Shown: positions 15,958 through 24,563 of the stretch, piece after piece
Numbering within the stretch: the first letter of the stretch is position 1
Layout of the letters: each line of letters starts with the position of its first letter
From: Candidatus Acidiferrum sp.
GTDB taxonomy: Bacteria; Chloroflexota; Dormibacteria; Dormibacterales; Dormibacteraceae
DNA: 64,000 nt
Reading direction: 5' to 3'
NCBI GenBank assembly: GCA_035571315.1
Contig: DATMKM010000158.1
Span: forward strand, 20,182 to 84,181
Made by a program: the position numbers and the translations under genes
Notes under the pieces: model-generated
Told to the model about the DNA's origin: nothing
The model's database searches: none
Seen by the model: the letters and a program-made list of their open reading frames with translations, nothing else

Positions 15958-17367
15958 CTACATGCCCTCCGCCATCTCGATGGCCTTAAACATCGCGCTC
16001 GCCTTCTCCAGCGTCTCCTCGAATTCACGCTCAGGTCGCGAGTCGGCGACCACGCCGGCGCCTGCCTGGACGTAAGCCACCCCGTCGGCTACCACCACCG
16101 TCCGAAGTGTGATCGCCATGTCGAGGTTGCCCCCGAAGCCCACGTAGCCGAGCGAACCCGCGTACACCCCGCGCTGGTCCGGCTCCAGCTCGGCGATCAC
16201 CTCCATGGCGCGAATCTTCGGCGCGCCGGACACGGTCCCCGCCGGAAACGCGGCACGCAGCGCGTCGAGCGACGTGCAGCCGTCCCGCAGCTCTCCACTG
16301 ACCGTCGATGAGATGTGCATCACGTGCGAATAGCGCTCGACCTCCATCAGCCGTTCGACATTCACCGTGCCCGGGCGGGCGACTCGGCCCACGTCGTTGC
16401 GCCCGAGGTCGACGAGCATTACGTGCTCGGCACGCTCCTTGAGGTCGCTGAGCAGCTCCCTCTCCAGCTTCACGTCTTCGGCCGGGTCGGCGCCGCGCCG
16501 CCGTGTTCCGGCCAGCGGCCGCGTCTCGACGCGCTTGCCCTCCACCTGGATGAGCTTCTCGGGTGAGGTGCCCACGACGTGGCGATCGCCCCCCAGCGAC
16601 AGGTAGAACATGTAGGGCGACGGGTTGATCGCACGGAGGCAGCGGTACACGTCGAACGGGCTGGCCTCGAGCGGCTTGCGAAAGCGCTGCGACGCCACGA
16701 TCTGGAAAGCGTCGCCGGCGAGGATGTGCTCCCTGGCCGCGTCGACCATCGACTCGAACTGGCCCTTGGTGACGTTGGACTCCCAGCGAGTACCGTCCGC
16801 CCCGCGCGCATACGACGCGACCTGATCCGAGCCGAGCCGGCGCTCCATCTCGTCGATGCGGCTCACCGCCTCTTCGTAGTCTTCGCGGTCCGGCCGGTGG
16901 ATCGTAAGGAGCTTGAGCCGGCGCGTCACGTGGTCGAAGACGGCCAGGTCGTCCGCGCGAAGGAAGGCGCTCTCGGGCATCGGCGGAGGCGCGCCCGCGG
17001 CGACGGGCAGGCGCTCGAAGTGGCGGGCGGTCTCGTAGCCAAGGTAACCGACCGCCCCCCCGTGGAATCGCGGCACGCCTCTGACCGGCGCGGTGACCTC
17101 GGCGGCGACGGCGCGGAGTGCAGCGAGGGGATCGTGAGGGGCGAGGTCCAGGTGCCTCGGCTCGAAGCCGATGAACGAGTACCGGGCCAGGCGTTCGCCG
17201 CCCTCGACGCTCTCGAGGAGGAAGCCGGGAGTCCCCGGCGGGCACAGCACCGTGTACGCGCGGACCGGGGTCAGCATGTCGGCCAGCACCTCCCGGTAGA
17301 CCGGGATCAATGCATGGTCTTTGGCGAGTACCTGGGCTTCTTCCCCGGAGGGAGTGCAATCTCTCAT
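15958..17367 (-). CDS. trpE: Anthranilate synthase component I
   Basis: 469 aa. ...FQIVASQRF...NPSPYMFYL...LAGTRRRG...GAPKIRAMEVI...RGVYAGSLGY. Confidence 0.9.
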   Translation of the reverse strand: MRDCTPSGEEAQVLAKDHALIPVYREVLADMLTPVRAYTVLCPPGTPGFLLESVEGGERLARYSFIGFEPRHLDLAPHDPLAALRAVAAEVTAPVRGVPRFHGGAVGYLGYETARHFERLPVAAGAPPPMPESAFLRADDLAVFDHVTRRLKLLTIHRPDREDYEEAVSRIDEMERRLGSDQVASYARGADGTRWESNVTKGQFESMVDAAREHILAGDAFQIVASQRFRKPLEASPFDVYRCLRAINPSPYMFYLSLGGDRHVVGTSPEKLIQVEGKRVETRPLAGTRRRGADPAEDVKLERELLSDLKERAEHVMLVDLGRNDVGRVARPGTVNVERLMEVERYSHVMHISSTVSGELRDGCTSLDALRAAFPAGTVSGAPKIRAMEVIAELEPDQRGVYAGSLGYVGFGGNLDMAITLRTVVVADGVAYVQAGAGVVADSRPEREFEETLEKASAMFKAIEMAEGM

Positions 17368-17587
17368 CTCATCTCATCGTCCTAGTCTCGACTGGTCTCG
17401 CCGCCCGCTTTCTGCAGCGGGCCGGAGGCGAAAGGTTAGCAGAGACAGGCCGGGTCACAATTCGCGCCCTGCCCACCCGTCTGCCTGCCATCGCCGCGCT
17501 CGGTCTCTGGCTGATGGCCGTCTCGGCGTCGGCGCCCATGGGGCCACCCCCCGGGCGACTCCGAACCGCCAGGCAACTACTAGACGG
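17368..17587 (-). promoter_or_regulatory. 220-nt untranslated leader of the trp/aro operon, with a strong stem-loop (17398..17431)
   Basis: No plausible ORF. The transcribed strand can form tcgcc-(tccg)-gcccgct-gcagaa-agcgggc-ggcga (12 bp in total) about 30 nt before the trpE ATG, with no U-tract. It also contains AGAGA (17504..17508) and GGGTGGG (17472..17478). The regulatory class is not assigned. Confidence 0.3.
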
Positions 17588-18154
17588 CTACTTCCTTGTC
17601 GTCTTGGCTTGCGCGTTCGCCTTTGCTTTCATATCCCGCTTGATCTCTCGCGCGTGCGCCATCGACTCGACCGAGTCGACGTCCGCCACGGTGTGCCAGT
17701 TCGCGGCGTGCTTCTCCCATCCGCGCGGCTTGACCCCGAACTTCTTGGCCAGCACCGCAACCAGGATCTTGACCTTCAAGTCTCCGAAGCCAGGCAGCTT
17801 CTTGATGCGCTCGGCCAGGTCATCCCCGTCGCGCGCGTCCCTCCACACCGAACCCGCGTCGCCCGCGTATTCGGCGACGACCACCTGGCAAAGCGCCTGC
17901 GTGCGTTTGGCCATGCTGCCGGGGAAACGATGCAGCGCCGGGCGCTCCCGAAAGACCGCGACCAGCTTGTCCGGGTCCATGTCGGCGATCTTCCGCACGT
18001 CGAGGTGGCCCAGCCGCTTCTTCAACTCGAGGGGGCCGCTGAACGCCTTCTCCATCTTGACCTGCTGGTCCAGGACCAGGCCGATCAGGAGGGCGAGCGG
18101 GTCGGTCTCCAGGAGGCGGTTCGCCTCGGGATCGTCGGTCCATACGATGGGCAC
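17588..18154 (-). CDS. HhH-GPD-type base-excision DNA repair protein
   Basis: 188 aa. ...DPLALLIGLVLDQQVKMEKAFSGP...RPALHRFPGSMAKRTQALCQ...KKLPGFGDLKVKILVAVLAKKFGVKP matches the actinobacterial HhH-GPD family as I recall it. GTG start. Confidence 0.75.
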   Translation of the reverse strand: MPIVWTDDPEANRLLETDPLALLIGLVLDQQVKMEKAFSGPLELKKRLGHLDVRKIADMDPDKLVAVFRERPALHRFPGSMAKRTQALCQVVVAEYAGDAGSVWRDARDGDDLAERIKKLPGFGDLKVKILVAVLAKKFGVKPRGWEKHAANWHTVADVDSVESMAHAREIKRDMKAKANAQAKTTRK

Positions 18155-18187
18155 CTGAAAACTTTACCCTTTGCCGTTATAGCCAAC

Positions 18188-18790
18188 GTGCCAGCGTTGC
18201 CTGATCGGGGGCAGGAGACGTACCAGCCGGGCTTGCGAGAGGACTTCGACCGCCTCTACCGCAACGCCTATCCACGCGTCTTCCGAACCCTTCTCGCGAT
18301 CCTCGGGGACCCCGACGAGGCGGAGGACTGCGCGCAGGACGCTTTTGTCAAGGCCTTCCAGGCCTGGAAGCGCTGGCGCCCCAACGCGCCTGCGGAAGCC
18401 TGGATCCACCGGATCGCGGTCAACCGTGCGATCTCGTACCGTCGCAGCGCGCGCCTGCGGTCGGTTGGGGAGATCCTCCGCCGCGTCGGCAGACCAGCGG
18501 GTTCCACCGATCCGGCGCAAGTGGCGACGCGGCCCGACATCCTCACCGCGCTGCGAGCGATTCCACCCAAGCTGGCGGCCGCCATCGTCCTGCGCTACTA
18601 CCACGGCTACAACAACCGCGAGATTGCCGCGGCGCTGGGGGTTTCCGAAAGAACCATCGGTTCGCGTTTGAACAGGGCCGCCGCGCGGCTGAGACCGCTG
18701 CTTGAAGAATCTCGAACTTCGGCCTTCTCACTTGGCGTAGGTGCGGCGTTGTCTTCAGAGCAGGATGCGAGTTCCCGTGCCGAGAGCTGA
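18188..18790 (+). CDS. ECF-type RNA polymerase sigma-70 family factor
   Basis: C-terminal 200 aa of ORF 17321..18790. Region 2: FDRLYRNAYPRVFRTLLAILGDPDEAEDCAQDAFVKAFQAWKRW...WIHRIAVNRAISYRR. Region 4: LPPKLAAAIVLRYYHGYNNREIAAALGVSERTIGSRLNRAAARLR. Start assigned to GTG 18188, only 33 nt from the divergent gene; uncertain. Confidence 0.8.
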   Translation: MPALPDRGQETYQPGLREDFDRLYRNAYPRVFRTLLAILGDPDEAEDCAQDAFVKAFQAWKRWRPNAPAEAWIHRIAVNRAISYRRSARLRSVGEILRRVGRPAGSTDPAQVATRPDILTALRAIPPKLAAAIVLRYYHGYNNREIAAALGVSERTIGSRLNRAAARLRPLLEESRTSAFSLGVGAALSSEQDASSRAES

Positions 18791-19289
18791 GCACCACCGC
18801 TTGGACCCCGGTTTGGAATGGCGATTGAAAGTGGCACTGAACCGCGTCACACCACCCTCATCGACCCCGCGCTACCTCTCGAGTGCGCTGAATGGCGTCA
18901 GGCCGTGGCGCGTCGCGCCCTTTGCGCTCGCGGGCGCGACCGCCATCCTGCTCGCTCTTACAGCCACCGCCACGACCGGCAGTCCCAACCCAGCCGTGTG
19001 GACGGGCGACGCCGCCTCGACCATCGGTGCGGTCGGGCACCTCCCAGACCCAAGGCCCAGCCCACCGCCGAGCCCGCCGCCCCCGGCCCCGCCTCGCAAG
19101 GCCGCCGTGCCAGCTCTGGCGCACCCGCCCGCAACCGGCAGGGCGGCGCCCAGCGCTGAGCCAACCGAGCGGCCCGAGGAGTCGCCTCGACCCCGGCCCA
19201 CCGCCTCCCCCAGTCCGTCGGACGATCACTCAGGCTGGAGCTGGCCAAATCCCTCGCCGAGCCCGTATAGCGACCCGCGCGACCACTAA
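18765..19289 (+). CDS. Putative anti-sigma factor / single-pass membrane protein with a Pro-rich ectodomain
   Basis: Overlaps the sigma gene stop. ...LEWRLKVALNRVTPPSS...WRVAPFALAGATAILLALTATA (one TM helix), then a Pro/Ser-rich tail. No recognisable domain. Called from position and topology only. Confidence 0.4.
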   Translation: MRVPVPRAEHHRLDPGLEWRLKVALNRVTPPSSTPRYLSSALNGVRPWRVAPFALAGATAILLALTATATTGSPNPAVWTGDAASTIGAVGHLPDPRPSPPPSPPPPAPPRKAAVPALAHPPATGRAAPSAEPTERPEESPRPRPTASPSPSDDHSGWSWPNPSPSPYSDPRDH

Positions 19290-19359
19290 AGCGACCCTTC
19301 CTACTTTTGGGTTTCCGGGCGTTACTAGGCATCCATCGTTGGTCAACAAGGAGGACAAC

Positions 19360-19932
19360 GTGACCAGAAAGACGATATTCAAGATCGGACTCGCCTCGGC
19401 CGCGGCCGGGGTAGCCGCGATCCTGGCGATCACGTCAGCGTTCGCGCACGGGACCCCGACGACGACCGGCCGCTCAATGGTCGGAACGATCGTGAATGCG
19501 GCGACCGGCGCCACCTTCGTGTCTTTCGAGGACCAGGCTCCGACCGCGGTCATCGACGAGCAGACGGCGGACGCTGAGGAGGCTGCCGAGCTGGCCGCCA
19601 AGATCGCCGCGGAGCAAGCCGAGCTGGCCGCCAAACTCGCCGCCCAGCGGGCAGAAGAGGCCGCCGAAGCGGCCGCCGCCACATGCACCACCGCCGACCA
19701 GACCGAAGACACGAGCGAGGCTGCCGCCGACCAGTCAGAGGACTCGGCTGAGAAGACCAACGGAACCGAGAGCGCCGCGGAAGACTCCGCCGAGCAGGCC
19801 GCCAGGCAGGCTACCGACAAGCCTGAGGACGCGGCTGAAGTGAAGTGCGCCGCAACAGAGGGCGAGCACCACAGCGACGGCGACAGCCACGAAAGCAGTA
19901 CCAAGACGTTCTCGTCTGAGGGCGACCACTAA
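19360..19932 (+). CDS. Secreted acidic Ala/Glu-rich protein (hypothetical)
   Basis: GTG 19360 is preceded by AAGGAGG (19349..19355). VTRKTIFKIGLASAAAGVAAILAITSAFA-HG is a signal peptide. The mature part is low-complexity: AEEAAELAAKIAAEQAELAAKLAAQRAEEAAEAAA...SEGDH. Confidence 0.5.
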   Translation: MTRKTIFKIGLASAAAGVAAILAITSAFAHGTPTTTGRSMVGTIVNAATGATFVSFEDQAPTAVIDEQTADAEEAAELAAKIAAEQAELAAKLAAQRAEEAAEAAAATCTTADQTEDTSEAAADQSEDSAEKTNGTESAAEDSAEQAARQATDKPEDAAEVKCAATEGEHHSDGDSHESSTKTFSSEGDH

Positions 19933-19950
19933 GCACCCAACCCTTCCTTG

Positions 19951-19975
19951 AAGGCCGGGCGTCCGGCCCGGCCTT
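19951..19975. terminator. GC-rich hairpin between convergent genes (possible bidirectional terminator)
   Basis: aaggccggg-cgtccgg-cccggcctt (9-bp stem), followed on the + strand by ctccttatttcc. Lies in the 47-nt gap between the stops at 19932 (+) and 19980 (-). Confidence 0.5.
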
Positions 19976-19979
19976 CTCC

Positions 19980-20846
19980 TTATTTCCGGCGCTGCACGAA
20001 CTGAAAGCCGAAGCGTCCCTTCACACAGAGGTGGCCAGCGGTGACGCTGTGGTCGAGCGGCGAAGTCACCTTCACGATCGAGTTGTCCTGCACATGCAGC
20101 TCGAGCATGCAGCCGACCCCGCAATAGGGGCAAACCGTCTGGGTCACGGTCTGAGCCGGCTCATCCCACGTTCCCGCCTGGCGCATGTCGTACTCGCTCT
20201 TGAACATCAGGGCTCCAGTTGGGCAAACGCCGATGCAGTTGCCGCAGTACACGCAGGCCGATTCGGGCAGCGGCGTGGTGAACTCCGTGGAGATGTGGGC
20301 GTCGAAGCCGCGACCCGCCACCCCGATGGCGAACGTGTTCTGCGCGTCGACGCCGCAGGCCTCGACGCACTTGTAGCAGAGGATGCAGCGCGAGTAATCC
20401 CGCACATACAGGTCGTTGTCGATCTTCACCGGCTGAGCGACGGTCGCGACGTTCGCGCCGAACCGACCAGGTGTCGCGCGGTAGCGCGACATCCACCCGT
20501 GCACCTCCTGCGAGCAGAGCGACATGTCCACGGACGACGCGAGCAGCTCGAGCACGAGCCGGCGGCTGTGTCGTACCCGCTCCGAATCCGTCTGGATCTT
20601 CATGCCCGCCTCGACCTTGCGCGAGCAGGCGGGCACGAGCACGCGCGATCCCTCGAGCTCCACCACGCAGACCCTGCATACGTTGACCGGCGTCAGTGTC
20701 TCCAGCTGGCACAGCGTTGGCGTGTCGATCTGCAGCCGGCGGCAGGCGTCGAGGATGGTCGCGCCTTCGAGCACATCGACCTCGTGGCCGTCGATGCTGA
20801 CTTTGACGAACCGCTTGGGCAAGCCGACGAACACAGGCTCAGCCAT
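19980..20846 (-). CDS. Formate dehydrogenase alpha, N-terminal Fe-S module (2Fe-2S, two 4Fe-4S ferredoxin motifs, and the Mo-bisPGD-domain [4Fe-4S] segment)
   Basis: 288 aa. C46-x10-C57-x2-C60-x13-C74; CILCYKCVEAC; CVYCGNCIGVCP; then CPYCGVGCMLEL...LCVKGRFGFQFVQRRK*, which is the first ~50 residues of an FdhF-type catalytic domain. 8-nt overlap (ATGGCTGA) with the upstream gene. Confidence 0.85.
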   Translation of the reverse strand: MAEPVFVGLPKRFVKVSIDGHEVDVLEGATILDACRRLQIDTPTLCQLETLTPVNVCRVCVVELEGSRVLVPACSRKVEAGMKIQTDSERVRHSRRLVLELLASSVDMSLCSQEVHGWMSRYRATPGRFGANVATVAQPVKIDNDLYVRDYSRCILCYKCVEACGVDAQNTFAIGVAGRGFDAHISTEFTTPLPESACVYCGNCIGVCPTGALMFKSEYDMRQAGTWDEPAQTVTQTVCPYCGVGCMLELHVQDNSIVKVTSPLDHSVTAGHLCVKGRFGFQFVQRRK

Positions 20847-22650
20847 CGATCACCGCCAGCTGAGTGAGCCCGGATGCAATCGCGTTCGCCGCCGTTTGAC
20901 CCAGACCGCAAATCGACGCGTCACGCATCGCCTGCGCGATGTCGCTGAGCAGGGCGACGTCAGATTCCTGGCGATCCGTCAGCAGACGATGAAGCACCTC
21001 CTCCTGCCTCACGGTCCCGACGCGGCATGGCACGCACTGGCCGCACGACTCGTCGCGGAAGAAGCGCGCGATGCGGAGCAGGATCTGTTTCAAATCGGCC
21101 GTGTCGTCGAGCACGATGACCGCTCCAGAGCCGAGCGTGGCACCGATTCCTCTTGTCCCTTCGAAGCTGAGCGCAACGTCAAGCTGCCGCTCCGTTACGA
21201 AGGAGCCGGCCGCGCCGCCCAGGAGCACGGCCTGCAACAGTCTCCCGGCGGGTAGGCCTCCAGCCAGGTCGATCAGAGCCCGCAGAGTGGTGCCCATCGG
21301 GACCTCGTAGAGGCCCGGCTCGCGAACATGCCCCGACACGCAGAAGAGGCGAGTGCCTGTGGAATCCGCCGTGCCGGTCGCTGCAAATGCGGCGCCGCCT
21401 TCGACGACGATGTCCAGTACGTTGACGAGCGTCTCAACGTTGTTGATGAGCGTCGGCTTACCGAAGAGGCCTGCCTCGACGGGGAACGGCGGTTTGTTGC
21501 GCGGTTCACCCCGTTTGCCCTCGATCGAGTTGAAAAGCGCGGTCTCCTCACCGCAAATGTAGGCCCATGCGCCGCGGCGGACTTCGATGTCGAAATCGAG
21601 AAGCCCGGCCGCTTTGGTCTGCGCGATCGCATGCTCTATGCGCTGCCTGGCGAGCGGGTACTCGCCGCGGACGAACACGTAGCCCTTGTCGCAACCGGTG
21701 GCGAAGGCGGCGATCGCCATGGCCTCCACGACCGCAAACGGGTCGCGTTCGAGCAGCTCTCTGTCTTTGAAGGTTCCGGGTTCGGACTCGTCGGCGTTAC
21801 AGACGAGGTAGTGGGGACGCGCGGGAGCCTTGGAAACGGAATCCCATTTGCGCCCAGTGGGAAAGGCCGCGCCACCACGGCCAAGCAGCCTGGCGTCGGT
21901 CAGCTCGCGGATGACACCTTCAGGACCAAGCTCCCTTGCCCGCCGCAGCGCGGCAAAACCACCATGCTCGCGATAGCTGTCGATGCTTTCGGGATCGACA
22001 AGGCCAATGCGCCGAAGCATTCTCCCTGCGCCAGCAGCGGAACGTTCAGGAAGTCCCATCCTGGACGGGCTTGCGCCTGAGTTGGTGGGCTCAGGCCAAG
22101 CGCCACCACTCAGGATGGCCTGCGCAGCTATCGATGTGATCGGCGCGATCTGCAGCTCCTCATGAGTCATGCCCGCGCGCTCCACGAGCGCCGCCGGCGC
22201 TCGATCACACAAGCCAAGGCAAGGGCTGCGATGCCATTCCTTGCCCGCCGGGCCGACCGACTTGTCGAGCGCGGCGCACAGCTCATCGGCCCCGGCGCAT
22301 TTACAAGCGATGTCGTCGCAGACGTGGAGCGCGAGCGCGGGTCTTGATTCGAGCGCGAAGCGACCGTAGAAGCTCGCCACCCCGTACGCTTCGGCGGGCG
22401 GGATCGACAGCCTCCGGCACGCATACTCCAGAGCGCCACGGCTCACCCAGCCGACCGTGTCTTGAATGGCGTGGAGGACAGGAAGTAGCAGCGGGCGCTG
22501 AGACCGCGCAGCCCGACCCCCGAAGGCGACGTGATCGTCCGCCGGTCGGCGTTCGCCTCCCTCCCAGAGCGACAGTGGCTCGCCCAGCACACCGTCGACC
22601 GCCGCCTTCTCCTCGGCTGTCGCCGGCCCCCCGGTGGTCCGGATATCCAC
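20839..22650 (-). CDS. NuoE-like + NuoF-like fusion (FDH gamma/beta diaphorase; NAD(H)/FMN/Fe-S)
   Basis: 603 aa. N-terminal part ...LLLPVLHAIQDTVGWVS...HVCDDIACKCAG...SPCLGLCDRAP (NuoE 2Fe-2S). Then GRGGAAFPTGRKW...YLVCNADESEPGTFKDRELLERDP...ESCGQCVPCR (NuoF). The GTG start shares 1 nt with the upstream TAG. Confidence 0.85.
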   Translation of the reverse strand: MDIRTTGGPATAEEKAAVDGVLGEPLSLWEGGERRPADDHVAFGGRAARSQRPLLLPVLHAIQDTVGWVSRGALEYACRRLSIPPAEAYGVASFYGRFALESRPALALHVCDDIACKCAGADELCAALDKSVGPAGKEWHRSPCLGLCDRAPAALVERAGMTHEELQIAPITSIAAQAILSGGAWPEPTNSGASPSRMGLPERSAAGAGRMLRRIGLVDPESIDSYREHGGFAALRRARELGPEGVIRELTDARLLGRGGAAFPTGRKWDSVSKAPARPHYLVCNADESEPGTFKDRELLERDPFAVVEAMAIAAFATGCDKGYVFVRGEYPLARQRIEHAIAQTKAAGLLDFDIEVRRGAWAYICGEETALFNSIEGKRGEPRNKPPFPVEAGLFGKPTLINNVETLVNVLDIVVEGGAAFAATGTADSTGTRLFCVSGHVREPGLYEVPMGTTLRALIDLAGGLPAGRLLQAVLLGGAAGSFVTERQLDVALSFEGTRGIGATLGSGAVIVLDDTADLKQILLRIARFFRDESCGQCVPCRVGTVRQEEVLHRLLTDRQESDVALLSDIAQAMRDASICGLGQTAANAIASGLTQLAVIDG

Positions 22651-24563
22651 TAGGCCCGGGCGCCCGCGTGCAGCTTGTCGATCCTGATCGCGCTCGCCTT
22701 GAACTCCGCGGTACCCGACTTGGGGTCGGTCGCGTCGATGGTCAGCACGTTGGTGGCCACCTGGTCCGGGAAGTGGAGCGTCATGAACGCCAACCCGGGC
22801 CGCAGCGATTCTTCGAAGCGGATCGGCACCTCAACCGAGCCGCGCCGCGAGCTGGCAAGCACCCGCTCGCCGTCGTGGAGGCCGAGCCGCTCGCCGTCGA
22901 CCGGCGATATGAGCAGCGCCTCCCTCGTGCGCAGCGGGGAGGTATACCCGCCCGTCTGGACGCCGGTGTTGAAGGAATCGAGGCGTCGACCGGTCGTCAG
23001 TCTGATCGGAAACTCCTCGGTGAGGTGATCGACAGGAGGATCGTGCTCCACTACGGAGAACGGGGCGAGCATTCCCTCCGCCGGGTCCTTCCACAGCCGG
23101 GCGTGCAGGAATTGTGTTCCGGGGTGCGACTCATCCGGACACGGCCACTGGATGCCGCCGAGCTCGTCGAGGCGGGCATATGACATTCCGGCGTGCATCG
23201 GCGAGAGGCTGCGACACTCGTCCCACACCTGCTCCGCGCTCGGTTGTCCCCATTCACACCCCAGCCTGCGGGCCAGCTCGCAGATGATCTCGAGGTCGTC
23301 TCGCGCGCCGTCCGGGGGCTCGAGGGCGCGGCGGACACGCTGCACGCGCCGCTCGCTGTTGGTGACGGTGCCATCCGACTCGGCCCAGCCCGCGGAGGCC
23401 GGCAGCACGACGTGAGCGAGCTCTGCGGTCTGGGTCAAGAAGATGTCCTGCACCACCAGGTGCTTGAGGCTACTGAGCAGACGCACGGCGCGAGTCTGGT
23501 CGGCCTCGCTGCGCGCGGGGTTCTCGCCCACGATGTAGGCGGACGTCAGCTCGCCGTGCTCCATGGCTTCGAACATCTCGCTCAGGTGGTAGCCCTTCTT
23601 CTCCGGAAACTGTGCGCCACCCCACGCGCGCGAGAACTTGTCGTGAACGGCCCGGTCCTCTAGGTCCTGGAAGCCGGGCAGGCGCGCCGGGATGGCGCCC
23701 ATGTCACCGCCGCCCTGCACGTTGTTCTGCCCGCGCAGCGGGTTGAGGCCGCAGCCGTAGCGGCCGACCTTCCCGGTTAGAAGCGCCAGGTTGATGAGCG
23801 CGAGCACGTTGTCGGTGGCGTTGTGATGCTCGGTGATGCCCAGCGTCCAGCAGATCATCGCCTGGTCGGCTCGCCCGTACTCGAGCGCAACATCTCGGAT
23901 CGCATAAGCAGGCACGCCAGTCTCTTTCTCCGCAACCTCCAGCGTGTATGGCTCGACGCAACTGGCGAACTCCTCATAGCCAGTAGTGGCGCGCGCTATG
24001 AACTCCTTGTTCGCCAGGCCAGCGTGGATGATCACGCGCGCCATCGCGTTGGCCAGTGCGATGTCGCTGCCGACGTCGATGCCCAACCACACGTCCGCCC
24101 ACTCCGCGGAGCTGGTGCGACGCGGGTCCACCGCGACGAGGCGGGCTCCGTTGCGCACACCGCGCAGCAGATGATGGAAGAAGATCGGGTGAGTCTCGCG
24201 AGCGTTCGAGCCCCACAGGATCACGAGGTTCGTGTCCTCAGCCTCGCGATAGGAACTGGTCCCTCCCCCGGCACCGAACACTGTCGCCAGACCGGCGACG
24301 CTGGGAGCGTGTCAAGTCCGATTGCAGCTGTCGATGTTGTTGCTGTGCATGACGGCCCGGGCGAACTTCTGCGCGATGTAGTTCATCTCGTTGCTCTGCT
24401 TGGAGCAGCTGAACATGCCGAAGGCGTTGGGTCCCCGGTCCCTGGCCGAGGCGAAGCCGGCCGCAGCCCGCTCGAGCGCTTCGTCCCAGGTGGCGGGACG
24501 CAACCGCCCGCTTTCCCTGACGAGCGGTTCCGTCAGACGGACAAGCCCGTCATCCATGAACAC
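22650..24563 (-). CDS. fdhA: Formate dehydrogenase catalytic (Mo/W-bisPGD) subunit, selenocysteine-containing, lacking its own N-terminal Fe-S segment
   Basis: Joins ORF 24312..24563 and ORF 22650..24281 (same frame) through TGA 24312..24314: ...WDEALERAAAGF...NYIAQKFARAVMHSNNIDSCNRT-U-HAPSVAGLATVFGAGGGTSSY...NPLRGQNNVQGGGDMGA...TAEFKASAIRIDK. Colinear with E. coli FdhF from about residue 60 onward. Start is GTG 24563 or ATG 24557. Confidence 0.85.
24283..24299 (-). promoter_or_regulatory. Candidate bacterial SECIS hairpin
   Basis: mRNA reads UGA-CACGCUCCCAGC-GUCGCC-GGUCU-GGCGAC. 6-bp stem with a GGUCU loop starting 18 nt after the UGA, the same loop sequence and spacing as I recall for E. 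coli fdhF. Confidence 0.65.

What the first reader, a model, noticed from the sequence alone, without database searches (positions are those of the whole stretch)
19980..24563. FDH alpha subunit split inside the Mo-bisPGD domain, with the halves encoded in permuted order around a NuoE-NuoF fusion
The minus-strand gene order is: catalytic Mo-bisPGD part (22650..24563), then the NuoE+NuoF fusion (20839..22650), then the Fe-S module (19980..20846). The Fe-S module ends ...CPYCGVGCMLEL...LCVKGRFGFQFVQRRK*. The catalytic gene begins (V)FMDDGLVRLTEPLVRESGRLRPATWDEAL.... In single-chain enzymes these two stretches are contiguous (E. coli FdhF: CPYCASGC...LCLKGYYGWDFIND..RLKTPMIR...VSWDEAL). So the CxxCxxxC...C [4Fe-4S] segment of the catalytic domain sits on a different polypeptide from the rest of that domain. 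The larger piece has also been moved to the front of the operon. All junctions are tight: TAG/GTG share 1 nt at 22650, and there is an 8-nt ATGGCTGA overlap at 20839..20846. Both pieces look intact. This argues for a functional three-protein enzyme rather than decay. I do not know of this arrangement being described.
Basis: partly seen in the sequence, partly recalled or inferred. Interest (0 to 1): 0.75.

Follow-up and report, generated by a model that had tools for sequence, protein, structure and literature searches.

The report
Three-piece formate dehydrogenase, iron-sulfur domain detached
This is a real, conserved and widespread version of the NAD-linked metal formate dehydrogenase in which the small iron-sulfur domain that normally begins the catalytic protein is carried by a different subunit; I found no paper describing it, but it changes the packaging of the enzyme, not its chemistry.

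Summary
On the minus strand lie a catalytic Mo/W-bisPGD gene (22650..24563), a NuoE-NuoF fusion (20839..22650) and a 288-aa Fe-S protein (19980..20846). The Fe-S protein ends with the Molybdop_Fe4S4 (FS0) domain. One FDH-alpha profile (TIGR01591) is divided cleanly: positions 1-50 on the Fe-S protein, 53-672 on the catalytic protein.

It is a selenocysteine codon, followed by a SECIS hairpin supported by covariation.

This is not decay or misassembly:
- In every related locus (about 60) where the Fe-S protein is at least 58% identical and partner genes are in view, they lie in this order and the break is at the same point. These include cultured Streptomyces, Amycolatopsis and Nonomuraea.
- More distant relatives keep the canonical layout.
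- All three genes form one clade, and dN/dS is about 0.1.
- fdhD is nearby in at least 29 of these loci.

The cofactor set equals that of Methylobacterium extorquens FDH1 (alpha-beta), with alpha divided in two. The likely function is a heterotrimeric formate:NAD+ oxidoreductase whose proximal [4Fe-4S] is supplied in trans.

Databases name the pieces only generically, and seven full-text searches found no description. Verdict: a new variant of a known kind, of moderate interest.

The parts
22650..24563 (-). Catalytic Mo/W-bisPGD subunit (637 codons including Sec). It lacks the N-terminal Fe4S4 (FS0) domain. The start is GTG 24563 or ATG 24557; the stop is TAG 22650-22652.
   Evidence: PF00384 from aa 9 (profile position 1) plus PF01568, with no PF04879. 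TIGR01591 positions 53-672 score 649 bits against a cut-off of 666. Best solved relatives are FdhF of T. kivui HDCR, E. coli FdhH, MeFDH1 alpha and RcFDH FdsA 308-931. The Sec-His dyad (RT-U-HAPS) and the RGQNN motif are present and found in 49/49 family members.
24312..24314 (-). In-frame TGA read as selenocysteine (codon 84), at the metal-ligand position of FDH.
   Evidence: The same codon is TGA in 39 distinct sequences of split-family loci (window included). It is TGC/TGT in Streptomyces, Amycolatopsis, Nonomuraea and Sphaerisporangium.
24283..24299 (-). SECIS hairpin GUCGCC-GGUCU-GGCGAC. It starts 13 nt after the UGA (12 nt lie between them).
   Evidence: The loop GGUCU is invariant in all TGA loci, whereas the same Gly-Leu codons vary in Cys loci. 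All cells are paired, 3 of 6 pairs show compensatory changes, and 0/500 shuffles reach the observed covariation score. No Rfam family reached threshold.
20839..22650 (-). NuoE-NuoF fusion (603 aa), the diaphorase subunit: [2Fe-2S], FMN/NAD(H) site and [4Fe-4S].
   Evidence: Pfam 2Fe-2S_thioredx, Complex1_51K, SLBB and NADH_4Fe-4S. NCBIfam NuoF and NuoE models. Best solved relatives are HydB and MeFDH1 beta, about 380 bits each. The protein ends right after the NuoF cluster, so it lacks the extra C-terminal stretch of HydB. That this stretch is HydB's ferredoxin domain is my reading.
19980..20846 (-). Fe-S subunit (288 aa): [2Fe-2S] (C46, C57, C60, C74), two ferredoxin-type [4Fe-4S] (C154-C164, C198-C208) and the detached FS0 [4Fe-4S] domain. 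The His-ligated NuoG-N5-type cluster is absent.
   Evidence: The motif census across the family is 49/49 for each retained cluster and 0/49 for the His-ligated motif.
19992..20150 (-). The detached Molybdop_Fe4S4 (FS0/A1) domain, aa 233-285: C239-x2-C242-x3-C246 ... C274-V-K276-G.
   Evidence: PF04879, 71 bits, profile 2-54 of 55. Equals TIGR01591 positions 1-50. dN/dS is 0.04-0.08 in seven of eight pairs and 0.23 in one. The C[VI][KR]G[RQ]F motif occurs in 49/49 members.
19950..19976 (.). GC-rich hairpin between the convergent Fe-S gene and the plus-strand ORF ending at 19932. It probably marks the end of the operon.
   Evidence: 11-pair stem. The T-run is on the + strand, so it is only weakly terminator-like for the minus-strand operon.

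Best explanation
The three genes encode one soluble NAD+-linked Mo- or W-dependent selenocysteine formate dehydrogenase of the MeFDH1 (alpha-beta) type. Its alpha chain has been divided into two polypeptides.

The 637-aa catalytic subunit binds the bis-PGD cofactor and oxidises formate at the Sec-ligated metal. It has no iron-sulfur cluster of its own. The C-terminal 55-residue domain of the 288-aa Fe-S subunit docks onto it where domain I sits in single-chain enzymes. That domain supplies the proximal [4Fe-4S] and the conserved Lys/Arg of the CVKG motif.

Electrons then pass through the two ferredoxin-type [4Fe-4S] clusters and the [2Fe-2S] of the same subunit. They continue to the [4Fe-4S] and FMN of the NuoE-NuoF fusion, and on to NAD+.

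Shown here: domain content, the clean complementarity of the two halves, conservation, co-inheritance, purifying selection, Sec/SECIS and fdhD linkage. Inferred: the physical complex, the docking, the direction of catalysis and the metal.

The simplest origin is a single rearrangement of an ancestral beta-alpha operon. One possibility is tandem duplication followed by loss of the outer parts. That would create the fission and the CAT-beta-FeS order together. This origin is inference only.
For: Complementary halves:
- TIGR01591 positions 1-50 lie on the Fe-S protein and 53-672 on the catalytic protein.
- The same holds on RcFDH FdsA: residues 16-303 and 308-931.

Recurrence:
- About 60 species-level genome loci show the same order and the same break point.
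- In several loci a stop codon lies 3-13 codons upstream of the catalytic start, leaving no room for an Fe4S4 domain.
- The 120 best protein hits to the Fe-S protein (of 8000 scored) are, with one 392-aa exception, 287-293 aa long and share the same domain set.

Co-evolution:
- The split loci form one clade in the CAT, EF and FeS trees. Pairwise-distance correlations are 0.76-0.79.
- dN/dS is about 0.1.

FDH identity:
- The Sec/Cys-His dyad and RGQ motif are conserved in 49/49 members.
- FdhD/NarQ genes lie within the fetched flanks in at least 29 split loci. They follow the Fe-S gene directly in Streptomyces.
- Formate-THF ligase and an MFS transporter recur as neighbours.

Electron path:
- All on-pathway clusters of RcFDH (A1, A2, A3, the 2Fe-2S and B6) are retained.
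- The only cluster missing is the off-pathway dimer-interface His-ligated one (PMC7171172). MeFDH1 lacks it too (PMC10869683).

Operon:
- Gene junctions are tight or overlapping in the window and in most relatives.
Against: - There is no direct evidence of a physical complex or of activity for any member.
- The window has no fdhD within its 64 kb.
- No tRNA-Sec was found in the window, and sel genes were not looked for. Both could lie elsewhere in the genome.
- In a few relatives unrelated genes separate the three genes: L010, L012, L071 and L052. Co-transcription is therefore not obligatory.
- NAD+ versus NADP+, Mo versus W, and the physiological direction are not determined.
Confidence: 0.8

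Rival explanations
1. Artefact or decay: a misassembled or rearranged fdsA whose fragments are pseudogenes, with the TGA being a real stop.
For: The catalytic ORF has an in-frame stop. Gene callers split it into 81 + 543 aa. The gene order is unusual.
Against: The same order and break point occur in about 60 independent genomes, including isolates. dN/dS is about 0.1 in all pieces. TGA alternates only with Cys codons and is followed by a covarying SECIS hairpin.
Confidence: 0.01
2. The proteins do not form one enzyme. The Fe-S protein plus NuoEF would be an independent NAD(P)H:acceptor oxidoreductase, its C-terminal Fe4S4 domain being a vestigial N7-like cluster. The catalytic protein would hand electrons to some other partner.
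For: In complex I the equivalent cluster N7 is off-pathway (PMC7171172). In L010, L012, L071 and L052 the genes are separated by unrelated genes.
Against: The catalytic protein has no cluster of its own, and FDH-clade enzymes pass electrons out through FS0. The detached domain is the most constrained part of the Fe-S protein in most pairs (dN/dS 0.04-0.08). It keeps the CVKG motif in 49/49 members. The three genes are co-inherited across phyla with congruent trees.
Confidence: 0.05
3. It is an electron-bifurcating or confurcating FDH (NAD+ plus ferredoxin) related to HydABC/Hyt-Fdh complexes, not a simple NAD+-linked enzyme.
For: The best PDB hit of the NuoEF fusion is a HydB subunit (7q4v_B), scoring about the same as MeFDH1 beta. 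That HydB belongs to a bifurcating hydrogenase is from my own knowledge.
Against: The fusion ends just after the NuoF [4Fe-4S]: the alignment stops at HydB residue 516 of 599. It therefore lacks the C-terminal two-cluster ferredoxin domain of HydB (my reading). The Fe-S subunit lacks the His-ligated cluster. The cofactor set equals that of non-bifurcating MeFDH1. Hosts include aerobic actinomycetes.
Confidence: 0.05
4. Same heterotrimer, but its physiological role is CO2 reduction to formate for assimilation, feeding formate-THF ligase, rather than formate oxidation.
For: Formate-THF ligase is a neighbour in 8 split-family loci. That MeFDH1-type W enzymes are good CO2 reducers is background knowledge and was not checked here.
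Against: Most loci lack fhs nearby. An MFS transporter, possibly for formate import, recurs in 11 loci. The window's neighbours are housekeeping genes. The enzyme class is reversible, so sequence alone cannot decide direction.
Confidence: 0.15

Closest known systems
Methylobacterium (Methylorubrum) extorquens AM1 tungsten formate dehydrogenase MeFDH1 (Fdh1AB; PDB 7VW6, 7E5Z)
   Same: - The beta subunit is a single chain carrying [2Fe-2S], FMN and [4Fe-4S], which in domain terms is a NuoE-NuoF fusion.
- The alpha subunit carries bis-MGD, three [4Fe-4S] (A1-A3) and one [2Fe-2S], with no His-ligated dimer-interface cluster (PMC10869683).
- This is exactly the cofactor inventory of the three window proteins.
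- It is among the best solved hits for all three proteins.
   Different: - MeFDH1 alpha is one 989-aa chain. Here it is two chains, broken between the FS0 domain and domain II, and the catalytic gene lies upstream of beta.
- MeFDH1 has Cys at the metal, which I state from background knowledge. The window has Sec.
- Identity is only moderate: phmmer scores are 145 bits for the Fe-S part and 413 bits for the catalytic part.
Rhodobacter capsulatus / Cupriavidus necator FdsGBA(D) NAD+-dependent FDH (PDB 6TG9, 6TGA)
   Same: It has the HoxU-like N-terminal module plus an FdhF-like catalytic module and a NuoE/NuoF diaphorase. The direct chain is bis-MGD, A1, A2, A3, [2Fe-2S], B6, FMN (PMC7171172). 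The window's two proteins align to FdsA 16-303 and 308-931.
   Different: FdsG and FdsB are separate chains. FdsA is one chain with an extra His-ligated [4Fe-4S] at a dimer interface. It has an FdsD subunit and a Cys ligand. None of these applies here.
Formylmethanofuran dehydrogenase FwdB/FwdD (and FmdB/D)
   Same: It is a precedent for a Mo/W-bisPGD catalytic unit of the FDH clade divided between two polypeptides. The RcFDH paper notes that in Methanothermobacter wolfeii the FdsA C-terminus is replaced by an additional subunit. The identification with FwdB/FwdD is from my own knowledge.
   Different: There the C-terminal domain IV (cap) is the separate piece, and FS0 stays with the catalytic chain. 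Here it is the N-terminal FS0 domain that is detached, and it is fused to the electron-transfer module.
Canonical-order relatives found here: fused layout (L072, L074, L076, L078-L082) and the Anaerolineales layout (L069, L073, L075, L077, L083)
   Same: They have the same three modules and the same lack of the His-ligated cluster. Many are Sec-containing with the same SECIS loop.
   Different: - Fused layout: NuoEF, then one chain carrying Fe-S + FS0 + CAT.
- Anaerolineales layout: NuoEF, then an Fe-S protein that ends before FS0, then an FdhF-like chain with its own FS0.
- Only the window's family keeps FS0 on the Fe-S protein and places CAT first.

Membership tests
Mo/W-bisPGD formate dehydrogenase catalytic subunit (FdhF/FdsA clade, TIGR01591) | Molybdopterin oxidoreductase domains II-III and the dinucleotide-binding domain IV | tested here: met
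   PF00384 (233 bits) and PF01568 (83 bits).
Mo/W-bisPGD formate dehydrogenase catalytic subunit (FdhF/FdsA clade, TIGR01591) | Sec or Cys metal ligand followed by His, plus the conserved Arg (RGQ) | tested here: met
   NRT-U-HAPSV and PLRGQNNVQG. Found in 49/49 family members. The RcFDH paper lists His and Arg as conserved in all FDHs.
Mo/W-bisPGD formate dehydrogenase catalytic subunit (FdhF/FdsA clade, TIGR01591) | N-terminal FS0 [4Fe-4S] domain in the same polypeptide | tested here: not met
   The catalytic protein has no PF04879, and in relatives stop codons lie close upstream. The domain is at the C-terminus of the 288-aa protein instead.
Mo/W-bisPGD formate dehydrogenase catalytic subunit (FdhF/FdsA clade, TIGR01591) | Score above the curated equivalog cut-off (666.25 bits) | tested here: not met
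   The catalytic protein alone scores 649.3 bits. The Fe-S protein adds 54.1 bits on profile positions 1-50. Only a rough sum of the two passes the cut-off.
Mo/W-bisPGD formate dehydrogenase catalytic subunit (FdhF/FdsA clade, TIGR01591) | Linked FdhD sulfurtransferase/chaperone gene | tested here: inconclusive
   Present near at least 29 split-family loci and directly downstream in Streptomyces. Absent from the 64-kb window.
Mo/W-bisPGD formate dehydrogenase catalytic subunit (FdhF/FdsA clade, TIGR01591) | Formate oxidation / CO2 reduction activity | not testable with these tools
   No biochemical data for any member were found.
MeFDH1-type alpha-beta NAD+-dependent FDH | Beta subunit is a single chain with a NuoE-like [2Fe-2S] and NuoF-like FMN, NAD(H) site and [4Fe-4S] | tested here: met
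   Cys motifs C-x4-C ... C-x3-C and CxxCxxC are present.
MeFDH1-type alpha-beta NAD+-dependent FDH | Alpha cofactor set: [2Fe-2S], two ferredoxin [4Fe-4S], FS0 and bis-PGD, with no His-ligated cluster | tested here: met
   Motif census, compared with PMC10869683.
MeFDH1-type alpha-beta NAD+-dependent FDH | Alpha is one polypeptide (heterodimeric enzyme) | tested here: not met
   There are two ORFs, separated by the beta gene.
Electron-bifurcating HydABC-type NuoEF modules | HydB-type C-terminal 2x[4Fe-4S] ferredoxin domain | tested here: not met
   The fusion ends at aa 603, right after NADH_4Fe-4S. The alignment stops at HydB residue 516 of 599.
Bacterial selenoprotein gene (UGA plus SECIS) | In-frame UGA at a position that is Cys in homologues | tested here: met
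   39 distinct TGA sequences against TGC/TGT in the actinomycete genera.
Bacterial selenoprotein gene (UGA plus SECIS) | Hairpin just downstream of the UGA with a conserved apical loop, supported by covariation | tested here: met
   All cells paired, 3 compensatory pairs, invariant GGUCU loop. The loop codons vary in Cys loci.
Bacterial selenoprotein gene (UGA plus SECIS) | selA, selB, selD and tRNA-Sec in the genome | not testable with these tools
   No tRNA was found in the window. The rest of the genome is not available.

The most novel reading that the evidence does not exclude
This family would be the first recognised Mo/W-bisPGD enzyme whose proximal FS0 [4Fe-4S] cluster, together with the pterin-contacting Lys, is supplied in trans by another subunit. 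The interface between the catalytic metal cofactor and its first electron relay would then be a subunit interface. The bare catalytic subunit could be matured by FdhD and loaded with cofactor before it docks onto a pre-assembled Fe-S/flavin module. The family is widespread in soil phyla and is missed or under-called by standard FDH markers.
Probability: 0.55. Interest if true: 0.6.

Novelty: new variant of a known kind. Interest (0 to 1): 0.5.

Why it matters
- **Enzymology.** The FS0 domain is treated as an integral part of FDH-type molybdo- and tungsto-enzymes. A conserved natural enzyme that supplies it from another polypeptide shows that this junction can be a subunit interface. It also offers a natural blueprint for modular FDH and CO2-reductase engineering.
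- **Cofactor maturation.** It raises a concrete, testable question: is the cofactor inserted by FdhD into a catalytic subunit that has no cluster, before or after docking?
- **Annotation.** The catalytic protein scores below the TIGR01591 cut-off. Gene callers cut it at the Sec codon. NCBI names all three pieces generically. Formate-oxidation capacity may therefore be under-counted in Dormibacterota-like, Acidobacteriota, Chloroflexota and Actinomycetota genomes.
- **Tractability.** Cys versions exist in culturable, genetically tractable Streptomyces and Amycolatopsis.

Tried and rejected
- **Rfam.** A gathering-threshold scan of the whole window gave no hit, so the SECIS had to be tested by hand.
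- **tRNA.** ARAGORN found no tRNA, and so no tRNA-Sec, in the window.
- **Representative-library search.** The search with the Fe-S protein was dominated by fragments and frameshifted metagenome proteins. Several apparent 'split' representatives turned out to be noisy or cut at a contig end when aligned. I therefore relied on genome loci instead.
- **Structure prediction.** Single-chain models were not run because they cannot test docking.
- **Promoter scan.** No sigma-70-like site was found upstream of the operon. This is uninformative for this GC-rich organism.
- **Literature.** Searches for Dormibacter + FDH, NuoG/NuoE/NuoF + split, SCO6559-6562 (numbers recalled from memory, which gave no hits), Streptomyces + fdsA, gene fission + molybdopterin, and Streptomyces + fdhD found no description of this layout. 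Two reviews and the ForCE and diaphorase papers were also checked.
- **Second FDH in the window.** None: the other large ORFs are uvrA, uvrB, uvrC, polA, permeases, aroA and a histidine kinase.
- **His-ligated cluster.** I considered that its loss would break the electron chain. I rejected this because that cluster is off-pathway in RcFDH and absent from MeFDH1.
- **Taxon labels.** Several SMAG records carry implausible labels (for example Micrarchaeaceae archaeon, Nitrosopolaris). I based the taxonomic breadth mainly on isolates and chromosome-level MAGs; the remaining phylum names rest on ordinary MAG labels.


Full report
**Observation**

The minus strand between 19980 and 24563 carries three tightly packed ORFs.
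- The 288-aa protein (19980..20846) has Fer2_4 and two ferredoxin-type 4Fe-4S motifs. Molybdop_Fe4S4 (PF04879) occupies aa 233-285, the very end of the protein.
- The 603-aa protein (20839..22650) is a NuoE-NuoF fusion: 2Fe-2S_thioredx, Complex1_51K, SLBB and NADH_4Fe-4S.
- In the catalytic protein (22650..24563), PF00384 starts at profile position 1 at residue 9 and is followed by PF01568. It has no PF04879.

The NCBIfam FDH-alpha profile TIGR01591 is divided cleanly. The Fe-S protein matches positions 1-50 and the catalytic protein matches positions 53-672. On R. capsulatus FdsA (6tg9_A) the two proteins align to residues 16-303 and 308-931. No residues are missing from the enzyme; only the covalent link is gone.

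A GC-rich hairpin follows the last gene.

The catalytic ORF contains an in-frame TGA at 24312..24314, in the context NNIDSCNRT-U-HAPSV. This is the metal-ligand position of FDHs.

- Across related loci the same codon is TGA in 39 distinct split-family sequences. It is TGC or TGT in Streptomyces, Amycolatopsis, Nonomuraea and Sphaerisporangium.
- Starting 13 nt after the UGA is the hairpin GUCGCC-GGUCU-GGCGAC (24283..24299).
- The loop is invariant in every TGA locus. In the Cys loci the same Gly-Leu codons vary freely.
- On 21 sequences all cells pair, 3 of 6 pairs show compensatory changes, and no shuffle out of 500 reaches the observed covariation.
- From memory, the hairpin resembles the E. 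coli fdhF SECIS in sequence and position. I did not check that here.

The gene is therefore intact as a selenoprotein gene. The ORF lister splits it into 83 + 543 aa, and gene calls on a relative split it into 81 + 543 aa.

**Is the split real and conserved?**

Protein level:
- A search with the Fe-S protein scored 8000 candidates, all with E <= 1e-10.
- The 120 best are, with one 392-aa exception, 287-293 aa long and 86-90% identical where identity was reported.
- All share the domain set that ends in PF04879. The few that carry names are labelled Dormibacteraeota or Chloroflexi MAGs.
- Contigs carrying an 87%-identical relative show the same gene order, the same TGA and the same wider neighbourhood.

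Genome level: I scanned one genome per GTDB species with an alignment of the Fe-S protein. I then ran tblastn with all three window proteins against the 80 loci returned.
- In every locus whose Fe-S protein is at least 58% identical and that shows partner genes, they lie on one strand in the order CAT - NuoEF - FeS. There are about 60 such loci, and about 50 show all three genes.
- The Fe-S ORF stops 0-26 residues after the GRFG[FW]xF motif.
- The catalytic ORF begins a few codons before RLTxPLVR. In several loci a stop codon lies only 3-13 codons upstream of it.
- The set includes cultured Streptomyces (S. scabiei ATCC 49173, S. parvulus JCM 4068 and others), Amycolatopsis and Nonomuraea.
- It also includes chromosome-level Bryobacterales MAGs and MAGs labelled Acidimicrobiia, Gaiellaceae, Limnocylindrales, Dehalococcoidia, Planctomycetota and Gemmatimonadota.

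Loci at 38-47% identity have the canonical order instead.
- One group has NuoEF followed by a single chain carrying Fe-S + FS0 + CAT.
- An Anaerolineales group has NuoEF, then an Fe-S protein that ends before FS0, then an FdhF-like chain with its own FS0.

**Evolution and selection**

- Neighbour-joining trees of the three proteins each place the split loci in one clade, on a long branch away from both canonical-order groups. Sub-clades are largely congruent, and pairwise-distance correlations are 0.76-0.79.
- dN/dS between the window and its close relatives, and within Streptomyces, Amycolatopsis and an acidobacterial pair, is about 0.1 for all three genes.
- For the detached Fe4S4 domain dN/dS is 0.04-0.08 in seven of eight pairs, with one Streptomyces pair at 0.23.
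- Gene junctions are within about 20 nt or overlapping in most relatives.
- A few lineages have unrelated genes inserted: a Na/Ca-exchanger family protein and a hydrolase-like ORF in L071, and an opposite-strand gene in L052.

Misassembly, pseudogenisation and relaxed selection are excluded.

**Function**

- The catalytic protein has the Sec-His dyad and the RGQNN arginine motif in 49/49 family members.
- Its best solved relatives are FdhF of the T. kivui HDCR, E. coli FdhH, an F420-dependent FDH, MeFDH1 alpha and RcFDH FdsA.
- The most recurrent neighbour of the operon is an FdhD/NarQ gene (PF02634). It lies within the fetched flanks in at least 29 split loci and directly downstream of the Fe-S gene in Streptomyces.
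- Formate-THF ligase and an MFS transporter also recur.
- The window itself has no fdhD and no second Mo-bisPGD gene. Its other large genes are housekeeping genes.

**Mechanism**

The Fe-S protein keeps the Cys ligands for four clusters:
- a [2Fe-2S] (C46, C57, C60, C74);
- two ferredoxin-type [4Fe-4S] (C154-C164 and C198-C208);
- FS0 (C239, C242, C246, C274).

It lacks the His-ligated NuoG-N5-type cluster, as do all 49 family members and the canonical-order relatives.

In RcFDH the direct chain is bis-MGD, A1, A2, A3, [2Fe-2S], B6, FMN. The His-ligated cluster is off-pathway, at a dimer interface (PMC7171172). MeFDH1 lacks that cluster and has exactly three [4Fe-4S] plus one [2Fe-2S] in alpha. 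Its single-chain beta carries FMN, a [4Fe-4S] and a [2Fe-2S] (PMC10869683).

The window's three proteins therefore carry the complete MeFDH1 cofactor inventory. The NuoEF fusion ends right after the NuoF cluster, so it lacks the extra C-terminal stretch of HydB. I take that stretch to be HydB's ferredoxin domain, which argues against flavin-based bifurcation.

The CVKG motif next to the fourth FS0 cysteine is conserved. From my own knowledge, in E. coli FdhH the equivalent Lys44 bridges the pterin and the cluster. If so, that contact would here cross a subunit boundary.

The inferred path is formate, Sec-Mo/W (CAT), FS0 supplied in trans, two [4Fe-4S], [2Fe-2S] (all on the Fe-S subunit), [4Fe-4S], FMN (NuoEF), NAD+.

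**Origin (inference only)**

One rearrangement of an ancestral beta-alpha operon would produce the fission and the CAT-beta-FeS order together. One breakpoint would lie between FS0 and domain II. The event could be a tandem duplication followed by loss of the outer parts.

**Comparison and novelty**

- The closest characterised system is MeFDH1: same cofactors and the same fused beta. It differs by the divided alpha, the gene order and Sec.
- FdsGBA(D) differs further: separate G and B chains, an extra cluster and an FdsD subunit.
- FwdB/FwdD is a precedent for a divided FDH-clade catalytic unit, but at the other end (domain IV).
- From memory, I know of no Mo/W-bisPGD enzyme with FS0 on a different chain.

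NCBI names the Streptomyces proteins only generically. The names are '2Fe-2S iron-sulfur cluster-binding protein', 'molybdopterin oxidoreductase family protein' and 'NADH-ubiquinone oxidoreductase-F iron-sulfur binding region domain-containing protein'. The first two clusters each have more than 2200 member sequences.

Seven full-text searches and checks of reviews found no description. The library omits most subscription-journal papers, so absence is not proof.

**Verdict**

This is a new variant of a known kind: a widespread heterotrimeric, mostly selenocysteine-containing, MeFDH1-like NAD-linked formate dehydrogenase whose proximal cluster domain sits on the electron-transfer subunit.

Interest is moderate. 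It would surprise FDH and molybdoenzyme specialists somewhat, it is experimentally tractable, and it matters for annotation. It does not imply new chemistry.

Noticed in passing
Across the family Sec is the common state in uncultured soil lineages. Cys occurs in Streptomyces, Amycolatopsis, Nonomuraea and Sphaerisporangium.
   Followed up: yes
window 20490..20560 (-), Fe-S protein aa ~95-120: The His-x3-Cys-x2-Cys-x5-Cys motif of the NuoG-N5 / RcFDH-A4 cluster is absent (LELLASSVDMSLCSQEVHGW). It is absent in all 49 family members and in the canonical-order relatives. This matches MeFDH1, where that cluster is also missing.
   Followed up: yes
L069, L073, L075, L077, L083 (Anaerolineales-labelled MAGs): A third layout of the same modules: NuoEF, then an Fe-S protein that stops before the Fe4S4 domain, then an FdhF-like gene with its own Fe4S4 domain. 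So the alpha chain has been broken at two different points in different lineages.
   Followed up: partly
P0132 (1405 aa): This is a metagenome protein with two FdsA-like units in tandem in one ORF: Fe4S4, Molybdopterin and Molydop_binding, followed by Fer2_4, ferredoxin domains and a second stretch matching the whole Fe-S protein, Fe4S4 domain included. It could be a natural tandem duplication, the kind of intermediate a duplication-and-loss origin of the permuted order would need. It could also be an assembly or gene-calling artefact.
   Followed up: no
L071 2552..4941; L010 and L012 equivalent gaps; L052 5402..7001: In some Chloroflexota-labelled and other MAGs unrelated genes sit between the FDH genes. 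Between CAT and NuoEF there is a Na/Ca-exchanger family membrane protein and a hydrolase-like ORF on the opposite strand. Between NuoEF and the Fe-S gene in L052 there is an opposite-strand 449-aa ORF. The three genes are therefore not always one transcription unit.
   Followed up: partly
window 18892..19932 (+): An ORF convergent on the FDH operon encodes a protein with an N-terminal hydrophobic segment. This is followed by a long Ala/Glu/Asp-rich, low-complexity acidic region. It has no Pfam hit. It lies downstream of an ECF sigma factor-like ORF, recognised by eye in the ORF at 17321..18790 (+).
   Followed up: no
loci L004, L005 and protein P0002: Records that are 87-89% identical to the window across this operon carry mutually incompatible labels: Verrucomicrobiia, Candidatus Micrarchaeaceae archaeon and Candidatus Nitrosopolaris. 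Other equally close hits are labelled Dormibacteraeota or Chloroflexi. The SMAG-type labels look unreliable. The window's own taxon, probably Dormibacterota, was not verified.
   Followed up: no
catalytic protein, TIGR01591 score: Because the first 52 profile positions sit on another protein, the catalytic subunit scores 649 bits, just under the curated 666-bit cut-off. Automatic pipelines therefore name it only 'molybdopterin oxidoreductase family protein'. This is a systematic annotation blind spot for the family.
   Followed up: partly
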